Origin: a virus
Length of the DNA stretch: 64,000 nucleotides
Strand: one strand, 5' to 3'
Virus record (IMG/VR): IMGVR_UViG_3300044632_001278
The notes beneath the pieces were generated by a model, which made no database searches, was not told the DNA's origin, and worked only from the letters and a program-made list of their open reading frames with translations. The position numbers were made by a program, and so were the translations under genes. Below are positions 1-46,938 of the stretch, piece by piece (within the stretch, counting starts at the first letter, position 1; every line of letters starts with the position of its first letter).

Positions 1-177
1 TGCCTGTTGTGCCTGTTGTGCCTGTTGTGCCTGTTGTGCCTGTTGTGCCTGTTGTGCCTGTTGTGCCTGTTGTGCCTGTTGTGCCTGTTGTGCCTGTTGT
101 GCCTGTTGTGCCTGTTGTGCCTGTTGTACCTGTTGTACCTGTTGTGCCTGATGTACCTGTTGTGCCTGTTGTGCCTG
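1..177. repeat. 9-bp tandem repeat (TGCCTGTTG)n, about 19 copies, coding for GTT on the minus strand
   Basis: Directly visible; the variant copies near 125-155 are synonymous or conservative (GGT, TCA) in the minus-strand frame. Confidence 0.95.
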
Positions 178-487
178 CGGTTCCGGCTACTGATTTGATT
201 TTATTTAATAAGTTTGTTAATTGTGTTGCGTACTGAATTATTTCTGGCGTAACTAAATCTTTACTAGGGCCATTTGTCAAGTCGTTAATAAGATTTTCTT
301 TGGTCGAACCAATTTCATTTGCGATATTGGTTAGTAGGGAATTTATATTTTGTTCTAATATCTGAAGATCATTAGAAGACAATTGTTTTTTACCTCCCAA
401 ACCTACAGATCCTTTTAATTTATCAAAAAAACCAGCTTCATTTAAAAATTGAGTATATAACTCTTTAGTATAATTCATATCATTCAT
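1..487 (-). CDS. Partial ORF (3' end beyond window), not in the ORF track: MNDMNYTKELYTQFLNEAGFFDKLKG... followed by a (Gly-Thr-Thr)n collagen-like repeat; probable virion/head protein
   Basis: Manual translation of the minus strand from ATG at 487, just after the stop of the 489..2228 gene, stays open to position 1. Confidence 0.85.
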   Translation of the reverse strand, partial: MNDMNYTKELYTQFLNEAGFFDKLKGSVGLGGKKQLSSNDLQILEQNINSLLTNIANEIGSTKENLINDLTNGPSKDLVTPEIIQYATQLTNLLNKIKSVAGTAGTTGTTGTSGTTGTTGTTGTTGTTGTTGTTGTTGTTGTTGTTGTTGTTGTTGTTGTTG

Positions 488-6845: not shown

Positions 6846-8336
6846 ATGTCAACTACCTGTAATTTAATACAACAAGTAAAAGTTAGCGATCTGGTACGAT
6901 ACAGCACGTTAACGTCTAAAGATTTAATTTTAACAATTGAATCTGGTTCTTCCAACGATTTATACTCCAGAAAAAGCACATTTGGGGACGTTGTAACATT
7001 TTTATCATCTGTAACAGGATCTTATACCGGAAGTTTTTCTGGATCTGCAAAAACATTAAGTGGTACTTTTACAGGAAGTTTTACTGGTAGTTTTCAAGGT
7101 GATCACTCCGGTAGTTTTAGTGGAAACTTCAACGGTACCAATACAGGTAGTTTTACAGGCAGTTTTAACGGACTAACAACGGGAAAATCCAATACTTCAG
7201 GATCATTGAGTGGTAGTTTTTATGGTTATATATTGACTAAGAAAGCAAGTGCTAGTGGAAGTTTCAGTGGAAGTTTATATGGTTCATTGATTAGTAAAAA
7301 CTCTAAATTAACTGGTAGTTTTAGTGGTGTTTCAAGAGGACGTTTCTCAGGAAGTGTTTCTGCTAGCATCAAGGGTTACATTAGTGCATCAAATCATTAC
7401 AACGCAAATAGAAAAGTTGCATTTTATGGTACGGCTAGTTGCGCTAAAACCGCTTCTTATGCTTTGAATTCAGGAGGAAACATAACAGGCACTGGTACTG
7501 CAAATCAATTTACATACTGGACAGCAGGCACTGCTATAGGATCTACTAATTATCTGGTGAGAAATAGTAGTATTAATAATTTGGGAAGTATGGGTTCAGG
7601 TAGAGTTACTGTAAACAACCCATTACAATTTTCCGCTGTAGGTGAACATTTGATTCAAAATTCTTCATCGGGTCAATCCATATATGGTATAGGATTACAA
7701 ACCTCAAACAATTATTTAAGAACATCTGCTAATTTTGCATTTTATTATTCTGGATCTCACGTAAATACATCAGCTTTACCAGGCAAAGATGTAACTTGGC
7801 AATCAGGAAAATCTGGTTGGGGAGTTTTGGGAATCAGACAAAGATTATTAAGTGTTGGAAATATAGTGAGTTCCGACAACGTAAATGCTCAATTACATTT
7901 GCATTTAAGTGGGTCTACTGGATGGCCATCTGGATACAATCCAAATTCAAATGTATTTTTAATTACATCTGGTAGTTCACAAACCAAATTATTACGTGTT
8001 AGTGGAAGCGGACAGTTGGATGTTAGAGGTGATATAGTTGCACTTTCTACATTTGCTACATCTGATATCAGACTTAAAGATAATATTAGACCAATTGAAA
8101 ATGCACTGAAAAAAGTGGAACAAATCAATGCAATTGAATTCAATTGGAAGTCTAATGGCAAACAAGATTTCGGAGTTATTGCTCAACAAATTGAACAATT
8201 GTATCCTGACTTGGTAATGGAAAATCTTGAGGGATACAAAGTTGTAAAATATAATCCATTGATAGCACTATTATTAAAATCTATTCAAGAACTTAACAAA
8301 GAAGTTCAAGAACTAAAAAATAAGATTAAATCTTAA
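6846..8336 (+). CDS. Tail fibre with C-terminal intramolecular chaperone (peptidase S74)
   Basis: SDIRLKDNI...GVIAQQIE...YNPLIALLLKSIQEL; GSF(S/T) tetrapeptide repeats in the shaft. Confidence 0.9.
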   Translation: MSTTCNLIQQVKVSDLVRYSTLTSKDLILTIESGSSNDLYSRKSTFGDVVTFLSSVTGSYTGSFSGSAKTLSGTFTGSFTGSFQGDHSGSFSGNFNGTNTGSFTGSFNGLTTGKSNTSGSLSGSFYGYILTKKASASGSFSGSLYGSLISKNSKLTGSFSGVSRGRFSGSVSASIKGYISASNHYNANRKVAFYGTASCAKTASYALNSGGNITGTGTANQFTYWTAGTAIGSTNYLVRNSSINNLGSMGSGRVTVNNPLQFSAVGEHLIQNSSSGQSIYGIGLQTSNNYLRTSANFAFYYSGSHVNTSALPGKDVTWQSGKSGWGVLGIRQRLLSVGNIVSSDNVNAQLHLHLSGSTGWPSGYNPNSNVFLITSGSSQTKLLRVSGSGQLDVRGDIVALSTFATSDIRLKDNIRPIENALKKVEQINAIEFNWKSNGKQDFGVIAQQIEQLYPDLVMENLEGYKVVKYNPLIALLLKSIQELNKEVQELKNKIKS

Positions 8337-34584: not shown

Positions 34585-37500
34585 TTGTATTAAAAAATAC
34601 AGATAAAAAAATTAATTCGGTGGTGCATATTGCGGATATTCATATTCGTTTAACAAAACGTCATGACGAATATACTTTGGTTTTTGAAAAGCTTTATAAA
34701 GCCCTTGATAAAGCAAAAACACTGGATGCTATCTTGGTTATAGCCGGTGATTTGTTTCATAATAAATCCGATTTAAGTCCTGAATGTGTTAAAATTGGAA
34801 GTGATTTTCTAAAAAATTGCGCAGATAGAGTTCCTGTTATTTTAACGGCTGGCAATCACGATGCTACATTGGCTAATAAATCTAGATTAGATTGTATTAC
34901 ACCAATTGTGGATGCTTTGAATCACCCTAATCTATTTTATCTCAGAAATACAGATGTTTATAGATATGAAAATATTTTGTTTAATAACTTTAGTGTTTTT
35001 GATTGGGATGTCCCTGAAAAATACATTAAGTACGAAAATATCCCATCGAAATATCGTGATGAAACAGACCATCACATTGCTTTGTTTCACGGACCAGTAT
35101 ATAATGCTGTTACTGATGTTGGGTACACTGTTAGTAGCCGATCTGTAACCAATGAAACTTTTGATGGACATCACATTGCTATGCTTGGTGATATTCACAA
35201 ACATCAAATTCTACAAGAATATGATGACAATGAATCTTTGCCAGTTGTTGTATATGCGGGATCGATGATTCAACAAAACCACGGTGAGGAGCTTAAAGGC
35301 CACGGTTTCATTATGTGGGACTTGAAACGTAAATTATTCAAACACTACGAACTAGTAAATGAATATGGGTATTATACGGTGGAAGTTGACAAGGGTCAGT
35401 TGATTACGGATATTTCTAACATCCCAAAGAAATCCACACTACGTGTTATCTGTCGTGAGTCCATTCCTTCACAAGTAAAGGAGATTTTAAATGACATCAA
35501 AACCAAATCTACGTTAATCGAAACCACCTATGTTCGTGCCGACGATGTATCAAAAGATACAATTTTGAACTCTGGAAAAGTGTTTGATGTACATAACATT
35601 TTTGATGTTGACTACCAAAACAAATTGGTAGAAGACACATTGTTATCAAAAAATGTAGATAAGAATCTAATAGAAATGGTCAAGGATCTAAATAAGACCA
35701 TTAATAAAGAAATACCAAAAGATAAAGCTCCAAAGAATATTCGTTGGAAACCAAAGAAATTTGAATTCGACAATATGTTTAGTTATGGCGAAGGCAATAT
35801 AATAGATTTTGCTAAACTAAACGGCACTATCGGACTTTTTGCACCAAATGCTAGTGGTAAATCAAGCATTATGGATGCGCTTGCATTCTGTGTTTTTGAT
35901 AAGTTCAGTAAGGGTTACAAAGCATCACACGTGCTTAATACTCAAAAAATGAGCTTTCGTTGTAAGTTTAATTTTGAGGTAAATGGAGTTGATTATTTTA
36001 TTGAGCGTGAAGGTAAAGCAGACAAGAAAGGCAATGTCAAAGTTGAAGTCAAATTCTACAAAAAAGAAAATGACAAAGAAGTTCCATTGAACGGAGAAGC
36101 TCGTAGAAGCACAAACGATATTATTCGCGACTACGTTGGTACATATGAAGATTTTATTCTTACTGTTTTAAGTGTACAAAACAGTAAAGCTGGGTCTTTT
36201 ATTGATCTTGGACAGACTGAGAGAAAAGATTTATTGTGTCAGTTTATGGGATTGGATGTATTTGATCAATTATATACTATCGCAAATGATAAGTTTAAAG
36301 AAACAAATACTTTATTAAAGAATATAAGTAAAGATCAACTTATTCAAGAGTTGGAAACTGTATCTGGCAGTATAGACTATACTAATTCCAAGATTCAAGA
36401 GTTTAACGAAGAAGTAAAAAATCAAGAATTGTTAAAGGATTCTTATAACAATCTCTTATTAGAATTATCCAATAAAATTACTAAGACTGTAAGTTTTGAT
36501 TTTGATATTGTTAAATTGGAAAGTAACAAAATTGAACTTGAAGGTCAGATTAATGAAACCAATCTTAATATTAAACTTCAAAAAGATAAACTAATTGATG
36601 TAGAAACAAATATTACCAATCTGTCTTCATCCATATCAGACTGCGAAAATATTGATCGTGATTATGATCTTTATAAAGTTGCCAAACAAAATTTTGATAA
36701 CAAGACCAATGAATTAAATAATCTTAAGCTTGTTGTGAAAAATAAAATGGACAAATTGAAAAAGTTGGAAGATCACAAATATGATCCTAACTGTTCATAT
36801 TGCGTAAACAATGTATTCGTAAAAGATGCAATAAAAGTCAAAGCTGAATTGGAGAATGATAAAATCAAAAGCAAGGTTATTGTAGATGAGTATAATACAA
36901 TAAAGTCATCTTTGGAGAGTTATGGCGACATTGAAACAAAATTCAAACGTTGTCAAAAAGTAAATAACGATAAAGTTGCTTTTGAAAAAAGCAAGAGTGT
37001 TATTTCAAATACCATTCTTAAGTTGGAAAATGATCTTATTAAGATTCAAACCAAACTTAAGACTGTAACAGATAACATTTCAACTTTTTATACAAATAAA
37101 GATATTATTGAGAATAATAACAAGTTGATGTCTGACATCAACACTCAGAAAGATTTGATTAAATCTATCGACGTTAATATTAAATCTATTAATTCCAAGC
37201 TTTTTTCCTCATTAACTGAAAAAGGAAAGTTAGAAGTTCAGTATAAAACTGTTACTGAACAATTGCAAAAGGTAAAAGAATTAGAGTCGAGTTATGAAGC
37301 TTACAAACATTATACAAATGTAGTTAGCCGTGATGGAATTCCATATGAAATTATAACCAAGACTCTTCCTGAGATTGAAAAGGAAGTTAATAATATTCTT
37401 CAACAGTTAGTAGATTTTACAGTTACTCTTCAAACTGATGGAAAAAACATTATGACCAATATCGTTTACGAAGACAAACGTTGGCCACTTGAAATGGCAA

Positions 37501-37772
37501 GTGGAATGGAAAAATTCGTAAGTGGACTTGCTATCAGAGTTTCGTTGATTAATATTAGTAATCTACCAAGACCAAATATTATTTGTATTGATGAAGGATT
37601 TGGTTGTGCTGATAGTGATCATTTGGGTCAAATGGGAGCTTTGTTTAATTATTTGAAACATCAATTTGATTTTATCTGGGTGATCAGTCATTTGGATCAA
37701 ATGCGTGATATGGTTGATAACCAAGTGGAAATAAAAAAAGAGAATGGCTTTAGTAAGGTAGTATATATTTAA
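34581..37772 (+). CDS. Fused Mre11/SbcD nuclease and Rad50/SbcC ATPase (gp47-gp46 fusion)
   Basis: DIH, GDLFH, GNHD, GDIH phosphoesterase motifs, then APNASGKSS Walker A, CSYC hook, ASGME signature, IDEGFG Walker B and ISH, all in one ORF. Confidence 0.92.
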   Translation: MIVLKNTDKKINSVVHIADIHIRLTKRHDEYTLVFEKLYKALDKAKTLDAILVIAGDLFHNKSDLSPECVKIGSDFLKNCADRVPVILTAGNHDATLANKSRLDCITPIVDALNHPNLFYLRNTDVYRYENILFNNFSVFDWDVPEKYIKYENIPSKYRDETDHHIALFHGPVYNAVTDVGYTVSSRSVTNETFDGHHIAMLGDIHKHQILQEYDDNESLPVVVYAGSMIQQNHGEELKGHGFIMWDLKRKLFKHYELVNEYGYYTVEVDKGQLITDISNIPKKSTLRVICRESIPSQVKEILNDIKTKSTLIETTYVRADDVSKDTILNSGKVFDVHNIFDVDYQNKLVEDTLLSKNVDKNLIEMVKDLNKTINKEIPKDKAPKNIRWKPKKFEFDNMFSYGEGNIIDFAKLNGTIGLFAPNASGKSSIMDALAFCVFDKFSKGYKASHVLNTQKMSFRCKFNFEVNGVDYFIEREGKADKKGNVKVEVKFYKKENDKEVPLNGEARRSTNDIIRDYVGTYEDFILTVLSVQNSKAGSFIDLGQTERKDLLCQFMGLDVFDQLYTIANDKFKETNTLLKNISKDQLIQELETVSGSIDYTNSKIQEFNEEVKNQELLKDSYNNLLLELSNKITKTVSFDFDIVKLESNKIELEGQINETNLNIKLQKDKLIDVETNITNLSSSISDCENIDRDYDLYKVAKQNFDNKTNELNNLKLVVKNKMDKLKKLEDHKYDPNCSYCVNNVFVKDAIKVKAELENDKIKSKVIVDEYNTIKSSLESYGDIETKFKRCQKVNNDKVAFEKSKSVISNTILKLENDLIKIQTKLKTVTDNISTFYTNKDIIENNNKLMSDINTQKDLIKSIDVNIKSINSKLFSSLTEKGKLEVQYKTVTEQLQKVKELESSYEAYKHYTNVVSRDGIPYEIITKTLPEIEKEVNNILQQLVDFTVTLQTDGKNIMTNIVYEDKRWPLEMASGMEKFVSGLAIRVSLINISNLPRPNIICIDEGFGCADSDHLGQMGALFNYLKHQFDFIWVISHLDQMRDMVDNQVEIKKENGFSKVVYI

Positions 37773-37773
37773 T

Positions 37774-38733
37774 ATGCCTATTATCGACGATATCTATTTG
37801 GAAAAGTTTGGAAAATTAACAATTATTATTACGGATGAAGGTGTGTTTAAAACCATCAATGATTCATCGGTTAATTATGAGTTTATAATAACAATACGAA
37901 GTTTAGATTCCAATCTTATTTCACATATTATGTATCACCACTGTACAGTGGGGCATGATATGTGGACCTATAATTATAACATTTTTTATATAAAAGAAAT
38001 TTTAAATAAAAATCATCCTGGCATTTGCATAGAAATACACGATGTAGACAATACATTATTATTCAGTAAAAATTATCACGGTACTAAAAAATTTAGATGT
38101 TTGGATTTAAAATCTAAACAAGGTGATACAACCTATCCATCTTACCATACATTTTTCTACGATGATTATTTTACATCAAATTTTAATATCAAAGATGGAG
38201 ATGTTGTTTATGATCTGGGAGCTAATATTGGTGCGTTTTCTATTGCGTGTTCTAATTTTGATATCAAACAAATATATGCATTTGAACCACATCCAGAACT
38301 CTCACAGTATCTTAACGATAATTTGAACAGATATGGTAAAAACACAAAAGTGTTTAATAATGCGATTTCAAGTGAATTTAAAAAAGTAAGATTTGGTACC
38401 ACAGAATCTACAGTTGCTTCCAGAATTAGAAACGAAGGTGAATTTGAAGTTGATGCTATTAATTTAGAAAAGTTTGTAATAGATAATAATTTGGAATTGC
38501 CAACTTATTTAAAAATTGATATAGAAGGAGCTGAATATGAGTTTTTTGAAAATACAAGTGACAATTTCTTCAAAAATGTTAGAAGTATATTCTTTGAATT
38601 TCATTGCAATGACGGCGTAAATCTACTTAAAATAATTGATAGATTTAAGAATTTAGGATACAAGTTAAGTCACAAAGATAATGCCTTGGATCATAATCTA
38701 TCACATATGAACACCGTATACTTAAATAAGTAA
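37774..38733 (+). CDS. FkbM-family SAM-dependent methyltransferase
   Basis: VVYDLGANIGAF, AFEP, LKIDIEGAE and EFH motifs. Confidence 0.92.
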   Translation: MPIIDDIYLEKFGKLTIIITDEGVFKTINDSSVNYEFIITIRSLDSNLISHIMYHHCTVGHDMWTYNYNIFYIKEILNKNHPGICIEIHDVDNTLLFSKNYHGTKKFRCLDLKSKQGDTTYPSYHTFFYDDYFTSNFNIKDGDVVYDLGANIGAFSIACSNFDIKQIYAFEPHPELSQYLNDNLNRYGKNTKVFNNAISSEFKKVRFGTTESTVASRIRNEGEFEVDAINLEKFVIDNNLELPTYLKIDIEGAEYEFFENTSDNFFKNVRSIFFEFHCNDGVNLLKIIDRFKNLGYKLSHKDNALDHNLSHMNTVYLNK

Positions 38734-38736
38734 ATT

Positions 38737-40749
38737 ATGAAAAAAATATTGTTTATAGCTCCACATCTTTCTACTGGAGGACTACCTCAATTTTTATTGA
38801 AAAAAATACAATCGTTAATTAATGATTATGAAATATATTGTGTAGAATATGATGATATTACTGGTGGAGTTTTAGTTGTTCAAAGAAAGCAGCTTCAGAA
38901 AATTTGCGGTAAGAGGTTTTACACATTATCATCAAATAAATTTGAGTTACTAAAGTTAGTTGACAATATAAAACCTGACATTATTCATTTGGAGGAAATG
39001 CCAGAATACTTTATGGATGTTAACTTGGCTACTAAACTCTATAATAAAGACCGAGAATATCTAATTGTGGAAACTTCGCACGATAGTAGTTTTGATCCAA
39101 GAAGAAAGCGTGTTTTTCCAGATAAATTTACATTCGTAAGTAATTATCAGAAACAAAACGTCGAATCTTTAGGCATAAATACTACAGTTATTGAATATCC
39201 AATTTCTGTGAAGTGTAGAAAAGATAGATCTGAAGGATTGAAATTTTTGGGATTGGATGAAAGTAAAAAACACGTATTACACGTTGGATTGTTTACTCCT
39301 AGAAAAAACCAAAAAGAATTTATAGAATATGCTCGTGCAATGGAAAAAGAACATATTCAATTTCATTGTCTGGGTAATATGGCTGATAACTTCAAAAATT
39401 ATTGGCAACCTCTGTTGGATAATTTACCGAGTAATGTAAAAGTTTGGGGTGAACGCAAAGATGTAGAAAACTTCTACAGTTGTATGGATTTGTTTTTGTT
39501 CACTAGCAGAGGTCACGCAACTGATAAAGAGACAGCACCTATTGTAATTAAAGAGGCTATATCTTATAATATACCATCTCTATTGTACAATTTGCCTGTT
39601 TACCTTGATAGATACAAGGTATTTGAAAATATCAAGTATCTAGACGAAACCAATTTTAATCGTAATGTTAAACTCATAAAGAATCAATTGGGGATGATTT
39701 CAGATTCTGAAATAGAGATTGTTAATATAAAGAAAACTGCAAATAAAAACACGGTGGTTATCATATCAACACATCCCAATTTTAAAGCTGTAGAAGACAC
39801 AACTTTGGAATCAATTAATCAAGCTAAAAAAGCTGGTTATAAAGTGTTGTTGTCATCTCATTATCCTGCTAGTGTTGATTTGCAAAAAGCGGCTGATCAT
39901 TATGTATATGACTCAAACAATCCAATTTTAAAACATAATTTCTATAATAGATGGACATACAACACAGATAATACCAAGATCAATTTATTTTTTCCACCTT
40001 CCGATTGTGATAATTATCACGGTCTTGCTGTATTATTAAACTATTACAATGGCATATCATTGGCAAATAAAATCGGATACAAAAATGCAATTTGCTTCAA
40101 TTATGATATGGTCATTTCAGAATCAGATTTTTCAAAGTTATACGATGTAGATGAAATTCTAATTAATAAGAAAGCATTTTTCTTTTATGATAAGGCCTTA
40201 GAAGGTGACACATTCAAAACAGTATTTCACGGAATTAATACTCAATTTTTCTTGGATAATTTTGATTACTATACGCCAGAAGAATATATGGAATTTGTTA
40301 CCAAGAAAAATATATCAAATGGATTGGAACAATTCTATTATAATAAACTAATATCTAATAAGAGCGATCTTCATATAGATTATACAAACAACGAAGAATC
40401 TTATTTAAGCAATAGTAAAAATAATTTATTCTCAATGGTAGAATATCTATCGGTTCTGAGGATGAAGAATATAAATAAGTTTGGAGTATTAACATACATC
40501 AATAATAAATTAGATGGTCGTATAAATGAGATAATAATAAAAAAGAACGGAGAGGTAGTTAACAATTATTCTTACACGGTATCAGAAAAGGTTTGTTTTT
40601 ATTTAGCAAACGAGTTTGAAAACAATAATTTCTATGAAATTGAAAATAATCTATATGATCAAAATAAAATTTTATTGAGAAGTTATAAAAAGTCATTTAG
40701 AAGATTGGAAGACATAGATATTAACGGTTCTATTGATATTACACAATGA
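38737..40749 (+). CDS. GT-B (GT4-like) glycosyltransferase with an additional C-terminal domain
   Basis: PHLSTGGLPQ, VGLFTPRKNQ, DLFLFTS...ETAPIVIKEA. Confidence 0.85.
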   Translation: MKKILFIAPHLSTGGLPQFLLKKIQSLINDYEIYCVEYDDITGGVLVVQRKQLQKICGKRFYTLSSNKFELLKLVDNIKPDIIHLEEMPEYFMDVNLATKLYNKDREYLIVETSHDSSFDPRRKRVFPDKFTFVSNYQKQNVESLGINTTVIEYPISVKCRKDRSEGLKFLGLDESKKHVLHVGLFTPRKNQKEFIEYARAMEKEHIQFHCLGNMADNFKNYWQPLLDNLPSNVKVWGERKDVENFYSCMDLFLFTSRGHATDKETAPIVIKEAISYNIPSLLYNLPVYLDRYKVFENIKYLDETNFNRNVKLIKNQLGMISDSEIEIVNIKKTANKNTVVIISTHPNFKAVEDTTLESINQAKKAGYKVLLSSHYPASVDLQKAADHYVYDSNNPILKHNFYNRWTYNTDNTKINLFFPPSDCDNYHGLAVLLNYYNGISLANKIGYKNAICFNYDMVISESDFSKLYDVDEILINKKAFFFYDKALEGDTFKTVFHGINTQFFLDNFDYYTPEEYMEFVTKKNISNGLEQFYYNKLISNKSDLHIDYTNNEESYLSNSKNNLFSMVEYLSVLRMKNINKFGVLTYINNKLDGRINEIIIKKNGEVVNNYSYTVSEKVCFYLANEFENNNFYEIENNLYDQNKILLRSYKKSFRRLEDIDINGSIDITQ

Positions 40750-42890
40750 AAATTATACAAGTTAATTTAGGGTTATTGCCTATTCCGCCTAATGGATGGG
40801 GTGCAGTTGAAAAAATCATTTGGGATTATCATCAACTGTTAAACAAAAAGGGATTAGAATGTCAGATAAAGTATTTGAATGAAATTAAATATTCAGACGA
40901 TATAATCGTACATATACACGTAGCAAATCTGGCAAATGAATGTCATAAAAGAGGCATACCTTATATCTTTAGTTTACACGATCATCACGCTTATTTGTAT
41001 GGCAAAGATTCATCTGTATATAAAGAGAATTTACAAGCAATTGAAAATAGTGTAATATCCACTTGTCCTGCCAAATATTTGGTTGATTATTTCGGAAGTA
41101 AAAAATTACGTTATTTTTCCCACGCGGTAAATACCGATGTGTTTAAACATAAAAATAACAAAATTCCAGTAAATAAACTGTTGTGTGTTGCAAATAATGG
41201 TTATGCCAATAATCAATCATATGATAGAAAAGGATTCACATATGCGATTAAAGTGGCTAAAGAATTAGGATATCCAATTACTATTGCTGGACCATCTAAT
41301 AATAAAAAGTTCTTTGATATATTAGATGAAGAATTAAATCAGTATGATAAATTGACAAAAGTATTTGATTTAAATGAAGAATCGTTGATCGATTTATATA
41401 ATGACCATTCTATATTCATACACCCATCTGAATTGGAAGCAGGACATCCAAATCTAACGCTTTTAGAAGCAATGAGTTGTGGTTTACCTGTGGTAGGTAC
41501 GTTTGAGGAAAAATCATATAAAGGTATGGTTGTTGTTGAACGAAATGTAGAACAAATAAAATCCGCAATACAACAAATCACATCTGATTATAGTCGATAT
41601 CAAACCAAAGCTTTGGAGTGTGCTAAGGAAAATTCCTATTCCAACCGAGTAGACCAGTTAATCGATTTATATGATCAATATACTGAACGATTGTTTGCTA
41701 TTAAACACATCGATGTTTATGAAAATCTTAAAAAGAATGAAAAGAGTATTAAAACAAATGCGGTATTTAAATATTCATTCAATGATAATGCCAAGATTGA
41801 AGTGGATAACCCAGTAGACGTAGATCAAAGTTTCCACATAACATTCTATAATGGTGACGATAATAGTATTAAATATGAAACTGATTTAAAACATAATTGG
41901 TGGGGAAGTTGTAATTTTACATATTACATTCCCTATGAAATTCACATTAAAGATAATAAGACTAATGAATTGGTCGAAACATATAAGTTAAATTTAAAGA
42001 ATAAGAAAGTAGTAATTGAATATGAAAGTTACTCTTTAGGCGATCAATTGGCTTGGATGCCTATAATTGAACAGTTTAGAAAAAAACACGAATGTGATCT
42101 TTATGTCAAGTTACCTTTGAAAAATATTTTTGAAAACAAATACCCTTCAATTAAGTTTGTTCACAATAACAAACCTATTTCAGATGCATTTGCAACTTAT
42201 AAACTGGGATATTATGTAGACGAAAATGGATCTAACAATGATAGATGCAAAACAGATCCCAGAAAACAACCTCTACAAAAAATAGCAAGTGACTATTTAG
42301 GGTTACCATATGAACCAGAATTACCATTGCTTGACTTTGAAATCAAAGAAAGACCTCTAAAAAAGAGATACGTCACAATTGCAACACAAAGTACGTGTCA
42401 AGCCAAATATTGGAACAATAAAGGCGGATGGGAACGTGTTGTTGAATATATAAAATCAAAGGGATTTGAAGTAATATGCATAGATAAACACAAAACATTC
42501 GGAAATGGATCGGATTATATGAATAGTATGCCATCCAATGCTTTAGATTTTACAGGAGATAAACCACTGGTTGATCGTATGAATCAAATATATCACAGTG
42601 AGTTTTTTATAGGTTTACCATCAGGATTGTCTTGGTTAGCTTGGGCAGTTAAAAAACCAGTAGTATTAATTAGCGGGTTCTCATATCCATATACTGAATT
42701 TGATACTCCTTATAGAGTACAAAACCACTCGGTGTGTACAGGATGTTGGAATGATTCGCTATTTGACAAGGGAAATTGGAAGTGGTGTCCAAAATCTGAT
42801 AAGAGAGAAGAGTTTGAATGTACCAAACAAATAACTCCAAAAATGGTTATGGATACCATAGATCAACTATTAATAGAACAAAAAATTTAA
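40746..42890 (+). CDS. GT4 glycosyltransferase fused to a TibC/Aah-like autotransporter O-heptosyltransferase domain
   Basis: N-terminal PPNGWGAVE...HPSELEAG...LLEAMSCGLPV; C-terminal SLGDQLAW, QSTCQAKYWNN, FIGLPSGLSWLAW, LISGFS, VCTGCWND...WCP...FECTKQI. Confidence 0.88.
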   Translation: MKIIQVNLGLLPIPPNGWGAVEKIIWDYHQLLNKKGLECQIKYLNEIKYSDDIIVHIHVANLANECHKRGIPYIFSLHDHHAYLYGKDSSVYKENLQAIENSVISTCPAKYLVDYFGSKKLRYFSHAVNTDVFKHKNNKIPVNKLLCVANNGYANNQSYDRKGFTYAIKVAKELGYPITIAGPSNNKKFFDILDEELNQYDKLTKVFDLNEESLIDLYNDHSIFIHPSELEAGHPNLTLLEAMSCGLPVVGTFEEKSYKGMVVVERNVEQIKSAIQQITSDYSRYQTKALECAKENSYSNRVDQLIDLYDQYTERLFAIKHIDVYENLKKNEKSIKTNAVFKYSFNDNAKIEVDNPVDVDQSFHITFYNGDDNSIKYETDLKHNWWGSCNFTYYIPYEIHIKDNKTNELVETYKLNLKNKKVVIEYESYSLGDQLAWMPIIEQFRKKHECDLYVKLPLKNIFENKYPSIKFVHNNKPISDAFATYKLGYYVDENGSNNDRCKTDPRKQPLQKIASDYLGLPYEPELPLLDFEIKERPLKKRYVTIATQSTCQAKYWNNKGGWERVVEYIKSKGFEVICIDKHKTFGNGSDYMNSMPSNALDFTGDKPLVDRMNQIYHSEFFIGLPSGLSWLAWAVKKPVVLISGFSYPYTEFDTPYRVQNHSVCTGCWNDSLFDKGNWKWCPKSDKREEFECTKQITPKMVMDTIDQLLIEQKI

Positions 42891-42969: not shown

Positions 42970-45900
42970 ATGCCAATACAAGAAGGCGGTAGATTCGCCC
43001 CAACACAAAATATAGTAAGCCCAGGTGTATTCACACGTGAAAACGACCTCTCCGGTCTGGCTCAAGGAGTAGCAAACATTGGAGGAGCAATAGTAGCTCC
43101 ATTCGCTGATGGACCAGCGTTTTTTCCAAATACAATAACCGACGTAGCCGACTTGGAAACAAGATTTGGTGTCGCTGACGGTGTGTATTATGGACCATAC
43201 ACCGCCAAAGAATATCTACTACAACAAGGCATCGTTACCGTAGTTCGTGTAGGTGGTCTTACTGGTTACTGGCAGAAGAATCCATTGATTGTATATGCTC
43301 AACCAGGTATCTGGAACAGAAATGCTGATAAAGGTGCTATCACAACAGCTTCATTTATGTACATTGATACTACTAACTATGTATCAAACGTTAAGTATCA
43401 ACAAAGCAGTTCCGCAATCAACATTACAGGATCAGCTGAAATCAAGGGTTCAACTGGAAGTACAATAACCGGTTCAGCTACATTTTCTAGAGTAACTACA
43501 TCAGAAATTGCTTCTTTCTTAGCAAGTTTGGGTAGTTTGACAGGTGTAAATGCACTATCTGCTTCTTTGTCAACTTCATCCAGTTTGGGTAAAGTATTCA
43601 AAGTAACTTCTACTAGACACTATGAACTATTTAGTAGCTCAGTTGTAGCTAGAAACGGTAAAGTTGCAAAAGCAGGATCTTCAGTAGATCACGCTTTAGC
43701 CGCATTTGATTTTGAAAAATCACGTATAAGCGGTAGCGTTACTGTCGGTGGCGGTGGTTCAAGTAAGTACAAACTAACATTTGATAGTTCAAATAATAGT
43801 TACTTAACCGCCTCATTTACCGCACCAAATACATTTGGTTTGGTTTTTGCCAATTATGACGCAAATTCATCCTTCTCATTTGCAACTGCAAGTTTGAGTG
43901 GTGCTGGATTAAGTTCTTCGATTCAATTGGTACAACGCATTGATATCTCCAGAATGATTATTAGTGGATCATTAAACGTTAAGTTTGGATCTGCTGCAGC
44001 AACTAGTACTGTTACCGCAACAGACGTTGATGGAGTTGGATCATTGAGTGGTAGCATCTTGTATGCTGGTAAAGTAGTAGACATTGGTACAGTTTCATCA
44101 GGAATATTAGTACGTAAGTTTACAACCAGTACATTGGCAAACGGCAATGCAAAACCAGTTGGAACTTCATTCTTCTTGTTAACATCAAGTTTACAAGGTA
44201 CAAATATTGATAATGAAACCGCTGTAGCTACCGCATTCGACGAAAGTACAACAACCGTTGATCTAGTAAGTTCATCTTATTTCAATAGTACTATCGCTTA
44301 TAACCTAACCAACTTCAATGTTCAAGCAGGCACACCATTGACACTTGAAAGTGGTAGTTTCCATTCACTACGTGGTGTTGGAACTTGTGTAGCTGGTCTA
44401 CAAGTAAGAGGTGTGGTAAGTGGTTCCTTTGGTAAATATAATGGCGGATTCACAAATCAAGATAATCCAAGCGCAGATCAATGTAATCCAGTATTAACAG
44501 GTCGTCAAAAGATGATCTTGTCAGTATTGGCAAACACCCAAAATGCTTCATCACAATTCACCAGTGATTATCAAGTATTTGGTTTCAATACCTCAACATT
44601 GACTCAACTAACAAGTAGCACATTCCCATACAAGGGTGTAATTAATCCTAATGAAAATGTTTACAACTTGGCATTGAAGTATAGTTACACAAATCCAGCC
44701 GGTGGTACAAGTGCTGGTACATACGGTTACTACGACTTCAGTTTGAATGAAAACGACAATAATTACATCAAAGATGTATTTGGCGTAGACCCAACTGTTG
44801 GTAATCCTAACAAACAAATTGCTGGTCAAAAAGTTGAAGCTGCTTACAACTACGTACTATTCGAAGATAGCATCAAGAAGTTCGTAGCTGAAAAGACCAG
44901 CGCTTATGGTTGGAGACTACAAGTTGGTACAAGTAACCTATCAGGAAGTTCAATTGTTGGCGAACCTCTAAAGTTTGTTGATCAATATAGCACTGATTTG
45001 AATAACGGTGATAGTCAATTCAGTATCACCAATGCTTCTACTCCTTGGATCTACAGTCAAAAGATTGCTCCATTTAAAGGTAGCGCCGATGTAGCTGCTT
45101 TTCCAACCAAGTTCCAGTTGTTCAAGGTTCACACTTTGAGTGACGGTACATTGAGCAACACTAAGTTCAAGATTGAAATTAGTAATGTTAAGTTGGCAGG
45201 AACAGTTCCAGGTAGTGAATGGGGTAGTTTCACACTAGCAGTACGTGCTTATAGCGATACTGATAAGAAGCCAAAGTATTTGGAAATCTTCCAAAACTTG
45301 AATTTGGATCCAGAATCCGCAAATTATGTTGCTCGTAGAATTGGTAACAGATACGCATATATCACTTATGCTGGTAAGTTAATTCAATTTGGCGATTTCA
45401 ATAATTTGAGTAAGTATATCAGAATCGAAGCCAGTGACGTTTCTTACCCAGTAAGTTGCGTACCATACGGATTTGAATCATATAGTACTCCAATTGATAG
45501 TACCGCAAGCAACTATGTACCTGCTGTACAATACAGTAAAGCAAGTATCTATGGTCTCGGACCTGGTAAGTATCCATCTGGTACAGTATTCGGTAGTGTT
45601 CCAGGAACTGATACTGAAATCCAAGCACTATATCCAACATCTTCATTTGGTGTTGGTGTAGAAAATAACACTAAACAATACTTCAAGCCACTACCATATT
45701 ATGGTGCTTCAGATAGCAATGGTACAAACATTGACTTCGATCTAGAAGATAAAGTTTGGGGTACTACAAACAGTAAATTCTATGCTCAAGGTACATATGT
45801 AAGTACTGGTTCACTACTATCACCAACATTGAGTGGTAGTATCCCAAGTACATATGATGCTGTAAATGAATCTACATACGTTAAACTACGTAAGTTTATC

Positions 45901-46884
45901 GTAGGTTTCCAAGGTGGATTTGAAGGTCAATGGCCAGCAATTCCAATCAATGTAGGCAGTGACATTACCGCTGGTAATACACAAGGTCTAGATTGTACAA
46001 ATATCAATAGTCCAGGTAGTATCGCTTATAAGCAAGCAATTGCTGCAATCGGTAATCCAGATGAATTTGATATCAACTTGATCGTAACTCCAGGTATCTT
46101 CCGTGAACAACACAGTTACGTAACTGAACTAGTAATCGATATGTGCGAAACTCGTCAAGACTGTTTCTACATTATGGATAACGTAGTGTTCCCAGCAAGT
46201 AACCAAACTGTAGGATTGATTGATGCCGCAATTAACACTGTAGCTACAATTGATAGTAACTATGTAGGTACTTATTATCCTTGGGTTAAGATCCTAGATA
46301 CTAATACCAACAAGATTATTAGTGTTCCACCTTCAGTAGTGTTACCAGCAGTTTATGCTGCTAACGATAATGCTGCTGCTGAATGGTATGCTCCAGCCGG
46401 TCTAAACCGTGGTGGTATTCCAACCGCTGTACAAGTACTCGACAGAGTAACTCACAGTGAACGTGATGAACTATATGAAGGTCGTGTAAATCCAATCGCA
46501 GCATTCCCAGGCCAAGGCATTTGTGTATGGGGTCAAAAGACTCTACAAATTGCTCCAAGCGCTTTGGATCGCATCAATGTTCGCCGCTTGTTGATCAACT
46601 TGAAGAAGTTTATCGCAAGTTCAAGCAACTACTTGGTGTTTGAACAAAATGTTGCTTCTACACGTAACCGATTCTTGAGTATCGTAACACCATACTTGGA
46701 ATCAGTACAACAACGTAACGGTATCTACGCATTCCAAGTCAAGATGGATGCTGAAAACAATACTCCTGACTTGATTGATCGTAACATCCTCTACGGACAA
46801 ATCTATATCCAACCAACTAGAACCGCTGAGTTTATTATACTCGATTTTAATATACTCCCAACGGGCGCTCAATTTTCTGCCTAA
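42970..46884 (+). CDS. Contractile tail sheath protein (gp18-like), enlarged to 1304 aa
   Basis: SPGVFTRE; YYPWVK...PPS...WYAPAGLNRG...NPI...WGQKT...RINVRRL...PTRTAEFI. Confidence 0.95.
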   Translation: MPIQEGGRFAPTQNIVSPGVFTRENDLSGLAQGVANIGGAIVAPFADGPAFFPNTITDVADLETRFGVADGVYYGPYTAKEYLLQQGIVTVVRVGGLTGYWQKNPLIVYAQPGIWNRNADKGAITTASFMYIDTTNYVSNVKYQQSSSAINITGSAEIKGSTGSTITGSATFSRVTTSEIASFLASLGSLTGVNALSASLSTSSSLGKVFKVTSTRHYELFSSSVVARNGKVAKAGSSVDHALAAFDFEKSRISGSVTVGGGGSSKYKLTFDSSNNSYLTASFTAPNTFGLVFANYDANSSFSFATASLSGAGLSSSIQLVQRIDISRMIISGSLNVKFGSAAATSTVTATDVDGVGSLSGSILYAGKVVDIGTVSSGILVRKFTTSTLANGNAKPVGTSFFLLTSSLQGTNIDNETAVATAFDESTTTVDLVSSSYFNSTIAYNLTNFNVQAGTPLTLESGSFHSLRGVGTCVAGLQVRGVVSGSFGKYNGGFTNQDNPSADQCNPVLTGRQKMILSVLANTQNASSQFTSDYQVFGFNTSTLTQLTSSTFPYKGVINPNENVYNLALKYSYTNPAGGTSAGTYGYYDFSLNENDNNYIKDVFGVDPTVGNPNKQIAGQKVEAAYNYVLFEDSIKKFVAEKTSAYGWRLQVGTSNLSGSSIVGEPLKFVDQYSTDLNNGDSQFSITNASTPWIYSQKIAPFKGSADVAAFPTKFQLFKVHTLSDGTLSNTKFKIEISNVKLAGTVPGSEWGSFTLAVRAYSDTDKKPKYLEIFQNLNLDPESANYVARRIGNRYAYITYAGKLIQFGDFNNLSKYIRIEASDVSYPVSCVPYGFESYSTPIDSTASNYVPAVQYSKASIYGLGPGKYPSGTVFGSVPGTDTEIQALYPTSSFGVGVENNTKQYFKPLPYYGASDSNGTNIDFDLEDKVWGTTNSKFYAQGTYVSTGSLLSPTLSGSIPSTYDAVNESTYVKLRKFIVGFQGGFEGQWPAIPINVGSDITAGNTQGLDCTNINSPGSIAYKQAIAAIGNPDEFDINLIVTPGIFREQHSYVTELVIDMCETRQDCFYIMDNVVFPASNQTVGLIDAAINTVATIDSNYVGTYYPWVKILDTNTNKIISVPPSVVLPAVYAANDNAAAEWYAPAGLNRGGIPTAVQVLDRVTHSERDELYEGRVNPIAAFPGQGICVWGQKTLQIAPSALDRINVRRLLINLKKFIASSSNYLVFEQNVASTRNRFLSIVTPYLESVQQRNGIYAFQVKMDAENNTPDLIDRNILYGQIYIQPTRTAEFIILDFNILPTGAQFSA

Positions 46885-46908
46885 TCTAGGATAAAGAAAA
46901 TTAAACAG

Positions 46909-46938
46909 AACCCCGCTTAGAAATAAGCGGGGTTTTTT
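46909..46938 (+). terminator. Rho-independent terminator after the sheath gene
   Basis: AACCCCGCTTA-GAAA-TAAGCGGGGTT followed by a T run. Confidence 0.92.

What the first reader, a model, noticed from the sequence alone, without database searches (positions are those of the whole stretch)
37774..42890. Candidate virion protein O-glycosylation system (FkbM + GT4 + GT4-TibC-like heptosyltransferase)
Three coupled genes directly upstream of the sheath encode a methyltransferase, two GT4 domains, a further uncharacterised domain and a TibC/Aah-type heptosyltransferase that retains the four iron-finger Cys (CTGC...WCP...FEC). Bacterial TibC/Aah transfer heptose from ADP-heptose to Ser in beta-helical autotransporters, so their substrate is protein, not DNA. 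This window has no autotransporter but many Ser/Thr-rich virion proteins. The inference is that the phage primes Ser with heptose, extends with GT4s and caps by methylation, giving a glycan-coated virion. It would also suggest a Gram-negative host that makes ADP-heptose.
Basis: partly seen in the sequence, partly recalled or inferred. Interest (0 to 1): 0.8.

Follow-up and report, generated by a model that had tools for sequence, protein, structure and literature searches.

The report
Phage TibC-like fibre glycosylation cassette
An uncultured freshwater T4-like phage carries three linked genes with four sugar-transferase domains and a methyltransferase, one domain a true relative of the bacterial adhesin-glycosylating enzyme TibC, and comparison across phages and bacteria suggests it sugar-coats the phage's own half-micron, proline-free Gly-Ser/Thr-Ser collagen-like fibre, which no experiment has tested.

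Summary
Three translationally coupled genes (37774-42890) encode:
- an FkbM methyltransferase;
- a GT4 domain joined to a previously unassigned domain, which I show is a GT-A fold plus a beta-sandwich;
- a GT4 domain joined to a TibC/Aah-family domain (TIGR04414, 344 bits against a cut-off of 200; E 8.6e-76 to TibC 4RAP).

The catalytic Asp, all ADP-heptose-binding residues and the four iron-finger Cys are conserved. No autotransporter exists here or in any related phage.

The likely acceptor is outside the window. The same phage record encodes a 2002-aa tail fibre with 546 proline-free G-[S/T]-[S/N] triplets.

TibC-family genes occur in 19 of 71 viral records carrying such Ser-collagen DNA, against 1 of 78 with Gly-Pro-X collagen. 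In at least seven phage lineages the two genes are neighbours.

On a tree, every phage enzyme falls in a clade separate from the AIDA-linked bacterial enzymes. Five of the seven bacterial members of that clade sit beside small (G-S/T-S)n proteins, against 0 of 46 on the AIDA side.

The acceptor is refined, and the host inference is not supported. Nothing is tested experimentally.

This scan has already reached the same reading on at least eight other phage genomes.

The parts
37774..38733 (+). ORF1, 319 aa. N-terminal ~135 aa are of unknown function. The FkbM-family SAM methyltransferase domain covers residues ~144-298 (nt ~38203-38667).
   Evidence: TIGR01444 fkbM_fam 82.8 bits (cut-off 37.7) and PF05050 E 6.8e-17. 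phrog_8156 methyltransferase. The gene is conserved at this position in clade-1 relatives. In other lineages it is fused to GT4 or to TibC-like domains.
38737..39741 (+). ORF2 N-terminal half (residues 1-335): GT4-type GT-B glycosyltransferase domain.
   Evidence: PF00534 E 5.4e-10 and PF13692 E 3.1e-10, residues 169-290. In the 64-69 kb phages and in clade 3, the orthologue of this GT4 is the domain fused directly to TibC-like (39-45% identity).
39742..40749 (+). It is a GT-A-fold nucleotide-sugar transferase-like domain (about residues 336-565) followed by a beta-sandwich (about residues 566-670).
   Evidence: No Pfam hit at E<=1. AlphaFold2 model from a 28-sequence alignment: pLDDT 94.1, pTM 0.89. 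VIA-align: glycogenin Z 13.8 (182 aligned, rmsd 3.6), B4GALNT1 Z 13.6, WrtF fucosyltransferase Z 13.4, PBCV-1 A64R Z 11.3. Foldseek agrees, and matches the C-terminal part to RhoGDI/MD-1-like sandwiches. Invariant residues: H40, D57, N60, H93, N103, D122.
40746..41753 (+). ORF3 N-terminal half (residues 1-336): second GT4-type glycosyltransferase domain.
   Evidence: PF00534 E 1.6e-12 and PF13692 E 1.1e-9, residues 160-283. A GT4 + TibC-like fusion of 671-780 aa is the conserved core in nearly all phage lineages.
41754..42890 (+). ORF3 C-terminal half (residues 337-714): TibC/Aah-family (BAHT) protein O-heptosyltransferase-like domain. Key residues are D433, T550, K554, R611, P625, W630 and Cys 664/667/681/692.
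   Evidence: TIGR04414 344.4 bits (cut-off 200). 4rap TibC E 8.6e-76. Residue roles are taken from PMC4358343 and residue identities were verified. On the tree it falls in the phage/Ser-collagen clade, separated from the AIDA-linked clade with 100% SH-aLRT.
42970..46884 (+). Tail sheath, 1304 aa. This is the downstream neighbour and gives context only. It is not shown to be a substrate.
   Evidence: PF04984/PF17482 and phrog_23 match residues ~950-1303 only. A cassette-then-sheath order recurs with normal-size sheaths in L084, L382 (G065) and L384 (G098). A terminator-like hairpin lies at 46907-46936.
2..487 (-). Start of a protein with at least 21 Gly-Thr-Thr triplets, cut by the contig end. 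It is a possible second collagen-like acceptor, with weak support.
   Evidence: Translation. GTT triplets accompany GTS/GSS in the fibres next to TibC-like genes in G040, G060 and G035. E. coli TibC modifies Ser, not Thr.
6846..8336 (+). 496-aa tail fibre with 16.5% Ser and a C-terminal Peptidase_S74 chaperone. It is a further Ser-rich candidate acceptor inside the window, with weak support.
   Evidence: PF13884 E 1.4e-16. Tail-fibre PHROGs. Composition. Its C-terminus resembles the C-termini of the collagen-like fibres next to TibC-like genes in other phages.

Best explanation
The three genes form a cytoplasmic protein O-glycosylation cassette. Its main acceptor is the phage's own proline-free collagen-like tail or neck fibre. 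That fibre is 2002 aa, with 546 G-[S/T]-[S/N] triplets and a Peptidase_S74 C-terminus, and is encoded about 29 kb downstream in the same record.

Proposed mechanism:
1. The TibC-like domain of ORF3 transfers heptose from ADP-heptose to Ser hydroxyls of the (G-S/T-S)n chains, probably before they trimerise. The donor is probably the D-glycero-D-manno form, because the TibC-type Pro is kept.
2. The fused GT4 domain, the second GT4 and the GT-A-fold domain of ORF2 add further sugars.
3. The FkbM enzyme O-methylates the glycan.
4. The result is a heavily glycosylated, mucin-like fibre up to about 470 nm long.

Status of each step:
- Shown: family membership, intact active-site and iron-finger residues, domain folds, and the statistical and phylogenetic link between this enzyme clade and (G-S/T-S)n proteins.
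- Inferred: the acceptor, the donor sugar, the order of steps, the methyl acceptor and any effect on fibre stability.
For: 1. Enzyme identity.
- TIGR04414 at 344 bits against a cut-off of 200.
- E 8.6e-76 to TibC.
- D433, T550, K554, R611, W630, P625 and the four Cys match the TibC residues shown by mutagenesis to be needed for catalysis, heptose binding, stereoselectivity and iron binding.

2. Donor.
- Clade-3 phages carry PfkB-kinase-like, CTP_transf_like (phrog 'heptose 7-phosphate kinase/heptose 1-phosphate adenyltransferase') and cupin genes right after GT4-TibC.
- A Lachnospiraceae homologue is next to HldE and an epimerase.

3. Acceptor.
- The same record holds a Collagen (702 bits) + Peptidase_S74 fibre. 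Its repeat core is 40% Ser, 33% Gly and 19% Thr, with 1 Pro in 1735 residues.
- Fibres of the same type lie within 0-4 genes of GT4-TibC in clades 3 and 4 and in G013, G015, G060, G040, G016 and G035.

4. Association.
- 19 of 71 viral records with a (G-[S/T]-S)5 DNA pattern carry the family, against 1 of 78 with a (G-P-X)5 pattern (Fisher p 3e-6).
- Records of 60 kb or more: 11 of 17 against 1 of 13 (p 0.002).
- Records at least 90% complete: 4 of 5 against 1 of 12.

5. Phylogeny.
- All 27 non-redundant phage domains and 7 bacterial ones form one side of a 100% SH-aLRT split. All 23 AIDA-adjacent enzymes lie on the other side.
- 5 of those 7 bacterial genes adjoin small (G-S/T-S)n lipoprotein-like proteins, against 0 of 46 on the AIDA side.

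6. TibC heptosylates Ser, not Thr. The Ser lies in small-residue contexts such as N-S-G-G, and short peptides are accepted.

7. FkbM-TibC and GT4-TibC fusions are common.
Against: - In this phage the fibre gene is about 29 kb from the cassette, not adjacent.
- The cassette is translationally coupled to the primase and SbcCD-like genes. The only late-promoter-like AATAAATA lies after it, 67 nt before the sheath gene, so it may not be a late gene.
- No ADP-heptose pathway gene (PfkB, CTP_transf_like, SIS) was found in the 27-48% of clade-1 genomes held.
- TibC is known to recognise a beta-helix inside a dodecameric ring. Nothing shows that the family can accept a collagen-like chain.
- The association counts are not phylogenetically independent. 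The two DNA patterns also sample different phage types.
- One TibC-positive phage (G098) has a Gly-Pro-type collagen nearby instead.
- No glycan has been observed on any such fibre.
Confidence: 0.6

Rival explanations
1. General virion coat. The cassette glycosylates several Ser/Thr-rich structural proteins (the sheath insertion, S74 fibres, baseplate or capsid decoration) rather than the collagen-like fibre specifically.
For: - The cassette lies directly upstream of the sheath gene in clade 1, G073, L084, G065 and G098.
- Structural ORFs in the window are Ser-rich, at 12-18%.
- Mycobacteriophage capsid and tail-tube subunits are known to be glycosylated (Freeman et al. 2023, as cited in PMC12619734).
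Against: - The sheaths next to the cassette in L084, G065 and G098 are of ordinary size (569-605 aa). No shared insertion explains the linkage.
- This position is a module boundary where accessory genes often collect.
- The cross-lineage and bacterial association is with (G-S/T-S)n tracts specifically.
Confidence: 0.15
2. DNA hypermodification. The glycosyltransferases add heptose-containing glycans to hydroxymethylated pyrimidines in phage DNA, as shown for other phage GT-B enzymes.
For: - Phage GT-B enzymes, together with a cytidylyltransferase, put mono- and di-heptose on 5hmC (bioRxiv 10.1101/2023.12.21.572611).
- The cassette is coupled to replication and recombination genes.
- Clade-2 relatives have a cytidylyltransferase-like protein next door.
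Against: - No Thymidylat_synt/dCMP-hydroxymethylase family match in five clade-1 records.
- No such match, and no Tet_JBP match, in four 98-100% complete TibC-positive phage genomes. The Tet_JBP search had no positive control.
- The enzyme keeps the TibC beta-barrel region and the iron finger, which are used for protein-substrate binding.
- The DNA reading does not predict the link to Ser-collagen genes.
Confidence: 0.05
3. Host takeover. The enzymes modify host surface proteins or glycans, for example to block superinfection, rather than virion parts.
For: - Phage glycosyltransferases that change host serotype or LPS are well known (reviewed in the papers).
- The genes sit with early or middle-type genes.
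Against: - No lipid-carrier initiating transferase, flippase or polymerase was seen in the cassette or its relatives.
- TibC-type enzymes act on proteins in the cytoplasm.
- The enzyme tracks phage fibre genes across lineages.
- A host acceptor of (G-S/T-S)n lipoprotein type is conceivable, given the bacterial pairs, but the host is unknown.
Confidence: 0.08
4. Same acceptor, different chemistry. The TibC-like domain uses a nucleotide sugar other than ADP-heptose, or the GT4 domains prime and the TibC-like domain extends.
For: - No heptose-pathway genes were found in the held parts of clade-1 genomes.
- Donor specificity has never been tested in this clade, which is deeply separated from the characterised enzymes.
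Against: - All four heptose-binding residues and the stereoselectivity Pro are identical to TibC.
- HldE-like genes accompany the enzyme in other phages and in Lachnospiraceae.
Confidence: 0.1

Closest known systems
TibC-TibA and Aah-AIDA-I of E. coli (bacterial autotransporter heptosyltransferases, BAHT; TIGR04414; PDB 4RAP/4RB4; PMC4358343)
   Same: - Homologous over TibC residues 26-386 (E 8.6e-76).
- Same catalytic Asp, heptose-binding Thr/Lys/Arg/Trp, stereoselectivity Pro and four iron-binding Cys.
- Cytoplasmic hyper-glycosylation of Ser in a long repetitive fibrous surface protein.
   Different: - No autotransporter or AIDA repeat anywhere in this phage or its relatives.
- The inferred acceptor is a Gly-X-Y collagen-like chain, not a beta-helix.
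- The enzyme is fused to a GT4 domain and works with further transferases and a methyltransferase, implying an oligosaccharide rather than single heptoses.
- It belongs to a separate clade of the family tree.
- Its oligomeric state is unknown.
Mycobacteriophage virion glycosylation (Che8, Corndog, Myrna; Freeman et al. 2023, known to me from citation in PMC12619734 and from memory; the paper itself was not held)
   Same: Phage-encoded glycosyltransferases O-glycosylate the phage's own virion proteins.
   Different: - Different enzyme families.
- The acceptors there are C-termini of capsid and tail-tube subunits, not collagen-like fibres.
- Actinobacterial hosts.
- No heptosyltransferase of the TibC type.
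BclA collagen-like exosporium glycoprotein of Bacillus anthracis/cereus, and BclA1 of C. difficile (PMC8968730)
   Same: A prokaryotic Gly-X-Y protein rich in Thr that is O-glycosylated. The glycans are thought to aid hydration and stability.
   Different: - BclA triplets contain Pro (GPT).
- Other sugars (rhamnose-based; from memory) and unrelated transferases.
- A spore surface, not a virion.
Chlorovirus PBCV-1 A064R and mimivirus collagen glycosylation (PMC9614988, PMC5408694; PMC8968730)
   Same: - Virus-encoded, host-independent glycosylation of virion proteins by multidomain enzymes.
- A064R joins glycosyltransferase domains to a methyltransferase (from memory).
- The ORF2 GT-A domain resembles the A64R GT-A domain structurally (Z 11.3).
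   Different: - Eukaryotic viruses.
- N-linked capsid glycans, or hydroxylysine-linked collagen sugars.
- No TibC-type enzyme.
Phage DNA glycan hypermodification (Pyle et al., bioRxiv 10.1101/2023.12.21.572611)
   Same: Phage GT-B enzymes with nucleotide-sugar activating enzymes. Heptose can be the sugar.
   Different: - The acceptor there is 5hmC in DNA and needs a hydroxymethylase or TET. None was found in complete TibC-positive phages.
- Those enzymes resemble T4 beta-GT, not TibC.

Membership tests
BAHT / TIGR04414 (autotransporter strand-loop-strand O-heptosyltransferase) | Score over the curated equivalog cut-off of the family model | tested here: met
   344.4 bits against a cut-off of 200, profile positions 8-373 of 374. 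346 bits in the genome search.
BAHT / TIGR04414 | Catalytic base Asp110 and heptose-binding Thr226, Lys230, Arg286, Trp305 | tested here: met
   ORF3 D433, T550, K554, R611 and W630 align to these residues. Asp, Lys and Trp are invariant in a 25-sequence family alignment.
BAHT / TIGR04414 | 1Fe-0S iron finger: four Cys (TibC 339, 342, 358, 370) | tested here: met
   C664, C667, C681 and C692. Iron binding itself is not testable here.
BAHT / TIGR04414 | N-terminal beta-barrel domain (TibC residues 1-97; Pfam TibC_1st) | tested here: inconclusive
   The phmmer alignment runs from TibC residue 26. PF21129 was not reported for ORF3 at E<=0.01. It is reported for some relatives.
BAHT / TIGR04414 | Partner acceptor: an adjacent AIDA-type autotransporter with beta-helical repeats | tested here: not met
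   No AIDA or autotransporter Pfam hit in the large window proteins. No AIDA-like ORF in the window or in 70 phage loci by phmmer, while 33 of 80 bacterial loci have one. The phage enzymes are in a separate clade.
BAHT / TIGR04414 | Dodecameric ring; heptosyltransferase activity with ADP-heptose on Ser | not testable with these tools
   Needs purified protein, native mass measurement or cryo-EM, and an in vitro assay.
GT4 (Glycos_transf_1) glycosyltransferases | Match to the GT-B C-terminal domain model over threshold | tested here: met
   ORF2 39.5 bits and ORF3 47.8 bits against a cut-off of 26.4.
GT-A fold nucleotide-sugar transferases (ORF2 residues 336-565) | GT-A Rossmann-like fold; acidic metal-binding (DXD-type) motif | tested here: inconclusive
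   The fold is met: Z 11-14 to many GT-A enzymes, but similar Z to nucleotidyltransferases of the same superfold. D57 and D122 are invariant, but a canonical DXD was not established.
FkbM methyltransferases (TIGR01444 / PF05050) | Match over the curated cut-off | tested here: met
   82.8 bits against 37.7; PF05050 62.6 bits against 22.7. The methyl acceptor is unknown.
Phage DNA sugar-hypermodification clusters | Co-occurring hydroxymethylase (ThyA-like) or C5-MT + TET/JBP dioxygenase | tested here: not met
   No PF00303 match in five clade-1 records. No PF00303 or PF12851 match in four complete TibC-positive phages. The clade-1 records are only 27-48% complete, and the PF12851 search lacked a positive control.

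The most novel reading that the evidence does not exclude
Heptose-based O-glycans take the place of proline and hydroxyproline. Hundreds of Ser residues of a proline-free (G-S/T-S)n chain are glycosylated before trimerisation, and the sugars are required for a stable triple helix. The product would be a ~0.5 micrometre mucin-like 'glyco-collagen' whisker on the virion. The same enzyme clade would do this for small (G-S/T-S)n lipoproteins in free-living bacteria. That would define a second acceptor class for the TibC family and a new kind of structural glycoprotein.
Probability: 0.3. Interest if true: 0.85.

Novelty: new variant of a known kind. Interest (0 to 1): 0.7.

Why it matters
Protein O-heptosylation is known only for autotransporter adhesins of a few Gram-negative pathogens. 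Virion glycosylation in phages is documented experimentally only for mycobacteriophages.

If this reading holds, three things follow:
- A large phage-borne clade of the TibC family, over a thousand 50%-identity clusters and mostly multidomain fusions, glycosylates collagen-like fibres in many aquatic phages and some bacteria.
- It would explain how proline-free Gly-Ser/Thr-Ser tracts hundreds of triplets long can form useful fibres.
- Glycan-coated fibres could matter for host recognition, protease resistance and particle behaviour in water.

The system is easy to test in E. coli, which makes ADP-heptose.

Tried and rejected
- The 1300-aa protein downstream of GT4-TibC in clade 2 was tested as a divergent giant sheath and rejected. 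BLASTP shows no similarity, and it has a cytidylyltransferase-like segment.
- No ADP-heptose pathway genes were found in clade-1 records (PF01467 gave only a 16-bit match; PF00294 and PF13580 gave none). The extra 30 kb of the 99%-identical record G001 holds a second fibre, baseplate and RecA-like genes, but no sugar enzymes.
- T4-type late promoter search: only 6 TATAAATA in the window and none before the cassette, so expression timing stays open. The sigma-70 scan was no better than shuffles.
- The AGY-codon DNA pattern undercounts Ser-collagens. Clades 3 and 4 score zero although their fibres are adjacent, so the reverse tally of 15 of 48 is a lower bound.
- The careful tree did not finish. 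The quick IQ-TREE tree is used.
- The Freeman 2023 paper was not held.
- Literature searches for TibC or O-heptosyltransferase in phages found nothing relevant. This shows absence from the held library only.
- The second structure-prediction job was not used.


Full report
**What is there.**

The window is 64 kb of a 79-kb IMG/VR record of an uncultured T4-like phage. CheckV puts the record at 27% complete, which implies a genome near 290 kb. Genes from about 2.9 to 56.7 kb run on one strand.

The finding covers three ORFs at 37774-38733, 38737-40749 and 40746-42890. They are separated by 1 nt, 3 nt and a 4-nt overlap. They are also coupled, by a 1-nt gap, to the upstream 1063-aa SbcD/SbcC-like (gp47/46-like) gene and, through it, to a primase. 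An 80-nt gap separates them from a 1304-aa tail sheath. The sheath is followed by a strong terminator-like hairpin, head-cargo genes, the terminase and the portal.

**Domains.**

- ORF1 carries an FkbM methyltransferase domain (TIGR01444, 82.8 bits).
- ORF2 has a GT4 (Glycos_transf_1) domain and a C-terminal half with no Pfam match even at E 1.
  - A 28-sequence alignment of homologues gave an AlphaFold2 model of that half with pLDDT 94.
  - Its first ~230-260 residues have a GT-A fold: glycogenin Z 13.8, B4GALNT1 13.6, WrtF 13.4, PBCV-1 A64R 11.3 (Foldseek agrees).
  - The last ~100 residues form a beta-sandwich.
- ORF3 joins a second GT4 domain to a TibC/Aah-family domain.
  - TIGR04414 scores 344 bits against a curated cut-off of 200.
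  - phmmer to the solved TibC structure gives E 8.6e-76 over TibC residues 26-386.
  - Using the residue roles established for TibC (PMC4358343), ORF3 keeps all of the following:
    - the catalytic base (D433 = Asp110);
    - the heptose-binding residues (T550, K554, R611, W630);
    - the Pro that makes TibC prefer ADP-D,D-heptose (P625 = Pro300);
    - the four iron-binding Cys (C664, C667, C681, C692).

The cassette holds four transferase-type domains and one methyltransferase.

**No autotransporter.**

The large structural proteins of the window have no AIDA, pertactin or autotransporter match. A phmmer search seeded with two AIDA-repeat proteins found next to bacterial homologues hit 33 of 80 bacterial loci. 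It hit nothing in the window or in about 70 phage loci.

**The family is large and mostly multidomain.**

An exhaustive HMMER search found 1438 clusters (50% identity) at E<=0.001 and 777 at E<=1e-30. Most of the best hits are 600-2000 aa, and some have two to four TibC-like stretches. Named metagenome homologues include many FkbM-TibC and GT4-TibC fusions. This supports the view that the methyltransferase and GT4 work on the same product as the TibC-like domain.

**Phage relatives and their contexts.**

Fifty-seven viral loci carry a relative. They fall into several groups:

- Clade 1 shares the synteny of the window.
- Clade 2 (51-54% identity) has FkbM/GT4 fusions upstream. Downstream is a 1300-aa protein with a cytidylyltransferase-like segment. 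It is not a sheath.
- Clade 3 has GT4-TibC followed by three genes: a cupin, a CTP_transf_like protein (phrog 'heptose 7-phosphate kinase/heptose 1-phosphate adenyltransferase') and a PfkB-kinase-like protein. Together these form a split HldE-like set.
- Clades 3 and 4 place the gene beside collagen-like tail fibres of 800-2644 aa.

**The acceptor lead.**

Those neighbouring fibres are made almost wholly of GSS and GTS triplets, with Ser at the Y position in about 95% of them.

The same scan of the whole record G000 showed that this phage has such a fibre too. It lies outside the window at G000:C1:1493-7501, which is about 71.7-77.7 kb in window orientation and 29 kb downstream of the cassette. 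Its features are:

- 2002 aa, with a Pfam Collagen score of 702 bits and a C-terminal Peptidase_S74 chaperone domain;
- 546 Gly-X-Y triplets, with X = Thr 310 / Ser 200 and Y = Ser 459 / Asn 78;
- one Pro in 1735 repeat-region residues.

As a triple helix it would be about 470 nm long. It follows a gp15-like sheath-stabiliser gene, so it may be a neck or whisker fibre.

Inside the window, two further candidate acceptors have weak support. One is a truncated (Gly-Thr-Thr)n protein at 2-487 on the minus strand. The other is a 496-aa Ser-rich S74 fibre.

**Association tests.**

Results were as follows:

| Set of viral records | (G-[S/T]-S)5 pattern | (G-P-X)5 control | Fisher p |
|---|---|---|---|
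| All records searched | 19 of 71 | 1 of 78 | 3e-6 |
| Records of 60 kb or more | 11 of 17 | 1 of 13 | 0.002 |
| Records at least 90% complete | 4 of 5 | 1 of 12 | 0.01 |

Of the 19 positives, 18 score over the curated cut-off. Most of the Ser-pattern records are fragments of 10-35% completeness.

The positives include lineages not found in the first search:

- complete 64-69 kb phages (G013, G015, G060) with a 671-679 aa GT4-TibC lying 0-4 genes from a 1077-1425 aa GTS/GSS fibre;
- a complete 108-kb phage (G040) with two such fibres two genes away;
- G035, with a 2127-aa fibre directly adjacent.

In the reverse direction, 15 of 48 TibC-positive records hold the pattern. This is a lower bound, because the pattern requires AGY Ser codons and clades 3 and 4 use others.

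These counts are not phylogenetically independent. They do span genome sizes from 64 to 476 kb and many enzyme architectures.

**Phylogeny and the bacterial side.**

Eighty species-representative genome loci were fetched.

- Many show the classical arrangement, with an AIDA-repeat protein of 1300-2600 aa immediately downstream.
- A Lachnospiraceae locus instead has HldE and an epimerase next door.
- Two 'Flavobacteria MAG' contigs are phage fragments. They carry a Ser-type collagen, an FkbM-GT4 protein, a TibC-like gene and then a tail sheath.

A quick maximum-likelihood tree of 80 non-redundant domains has a deep split with 100% SH-aLRT. One side holds 46 bacterial rows, including all 23 AIDA-adjacent ones. 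The other side holds all 27 phage rows and 7 bacterial rows, none of them AIDA-adjacent.

Five of those seven bacterial genes come from Arenicellales, an unclassified gammaproteobacterium, Acidiferrobacterales and Methylobacter. They lie within 4 kb of small (140-290 aa) lipoprotein-like proteins with (G-S/T-S)n tracts, most with poly-Asp/Glu tails. On the AIDA side the figure is 0 of 46.

The family thus appears to have two subfamilies with two acceptor classes. The phage enzyme belongs to the collagen-tract one.

**Mechanism proposed.**

- *Shown:* the enzyme is an intact TibC-family member, and its clade tracks (G-S/T-S)n proteins.
- *Established for TibC:* it transfers heptose from ADP-heptose to Ser (not Thr), in contexts such as N-S-G-G. 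It works on short peptides and acts in the cytoplasm.
- *Inferred:*
  - ORF3 heptosylates Ser of the nascent fibre chains.
  - The fused GT4, the ORF2 GT4 and the GT-A domain extend the glycan.
  - FkbM methylates it.
  - Modification precedes trimerisation, as for animal collagens (PMC8968730).
  - The glycans may stabilise or hydrate a proline-free helix, as proposed for BclA.

**Rivals.**

- *General coating of virion proteins.* This remains possible. The recurrent position just upstream of the sheath gene is unexplained. However, those sheaths share no extra domain.
- *DNA glycan hypermodification.* This is a real precedent and includes heptose on 5hmC. Four complete TibC-positive phages have no ThyA-family or TET/JBP match, and five clade-1 records have no ThyA-family match.
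- *Host-surface modification.* This lacks any lipid-carrier, flippase or polymerase gene.
- *A different donor sugar.* This cannot be excluded for clade 1, where no heptose-pathway gene was found in the half-genomes held.

**Weak points for this locus.**

- The fibre is 29 kb away.
- The cassette is coupled to replication-type genes rather than to an evident late promoter.
- TibC's known substrate recognition involves a beta-helix inside a dodecamer.

**Novelty.**

Full-text searches found no paper on TibC-type enzymes in phages or on heptosylated collagen-like proteins. This shows absence from the held library, not from the literature.

After I had reached this reading, a word search of the scan's own notes showed that at least eight follow-ups on other phage genomes reached the same conclusion. 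The system is therefore recurrent, and this scan has seen it before on other DNA.

Compared with those descriptions, three features mark this locus:
- the enzyme and its presumed acceptor are separated;
- the cassette lies directly upstream of a giant sheath;
- there is an added GT-A-fold domain.

I class it as a new variant of a known kind: the BAHT family with a new acceptor class, and phage virion glycosylation by a new enzyme type.

Noticed in passing
window 2-487 (-): An ORF running off the contig end encodes a ~100-aa N-terminal domain followed by at least 21 Gly-Thr-Thr triplets. It is a second proline-free collagen-like protein.
   Followed up: partly
G000:C1:1493-7501 (-), outside the window; also L386:2013-7751 in the 99%-identical record: A 2002-aa (1912 aa in G001) collagen-like fibre with 546 G-[S/T]-[S/N] triplets and a Peptidase_S74 C-terminus. 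It is preceded by a gp15-like sheath stabiliser and followed by a second fibre (1779 aa in G001) with a short collagen tract.
   Followed up: yes
window 34581-37772 (+): A single 1063-aa ORF joins an SbcD/gp47-like phosphoesterase (residues 14-192) to an SbcC/Rad50/gp46-like ATPase. In relative L383 the two parts are separate ORFs (236 + 853 aa).
   Followed up: no
window 42970-46884 (+): The tail sheath is 1304 aa, and only residues ~950-1303 match sheath models. About 950 residues are unassigned. Relatives range from 1269 to 1349 aa.
   Followed up: no
window 30204-32780 (+): An 858-aa protein with FG-GAP repeats (PF14312, E 5e-22) lies among the structural genes.
   Followed up: no
L039:11079-12573 (+) and other clade-3 loci: Cupin (128 aa), CTP_transf_like (134 aa) and PfkB-like (243 aa) genes follow GT4-TibC directly. 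This looks like a phage-borne split HldE-like ADP-heptose module.
   Followed up: partly
L026:11135-15037 (+) and other clade-2 loci: A 1300-aa multidomain protein with a cytidylyltransferase-like segment (residues 345-545) occupies the position that the sheath gene has in the window. Its function is unknown.
   Followed up: partly
L094:6459-6890 (-), L124:10122-10583 (-), L122, L140, L103, L120: In Arenicellales, Acidiferrobacterales, an unclassified gammaproteobacterium and Methylococcaceae, TibC-like genes sit beside small lipoprotein-like proteins. These have a signal peptide with a Cys, (G-S/T-S)n tracts and, in most, poly-Asp/Glu C-terminal tails.
   Followed up: partly
G048:C1:85335-86378 (L385): The TibC-family match in this 164-kb phage record has 7 in-frame TGA codons and its ORFs are fragmented under table 11. 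This may be a TGA-recoded phage.
   Followed up: no
L084 and L086 (contigs binned in Winogradskyella and Flavobacteriales MAGs): These 'bacterial' contigs are phage fragments carrying a Ser-type collagen, FkbM-GT4, a TibC-like gene and a tail sheath. The binning gives a weak hint of Bacteroidota hosts for those relatives.
   Followed up: partly
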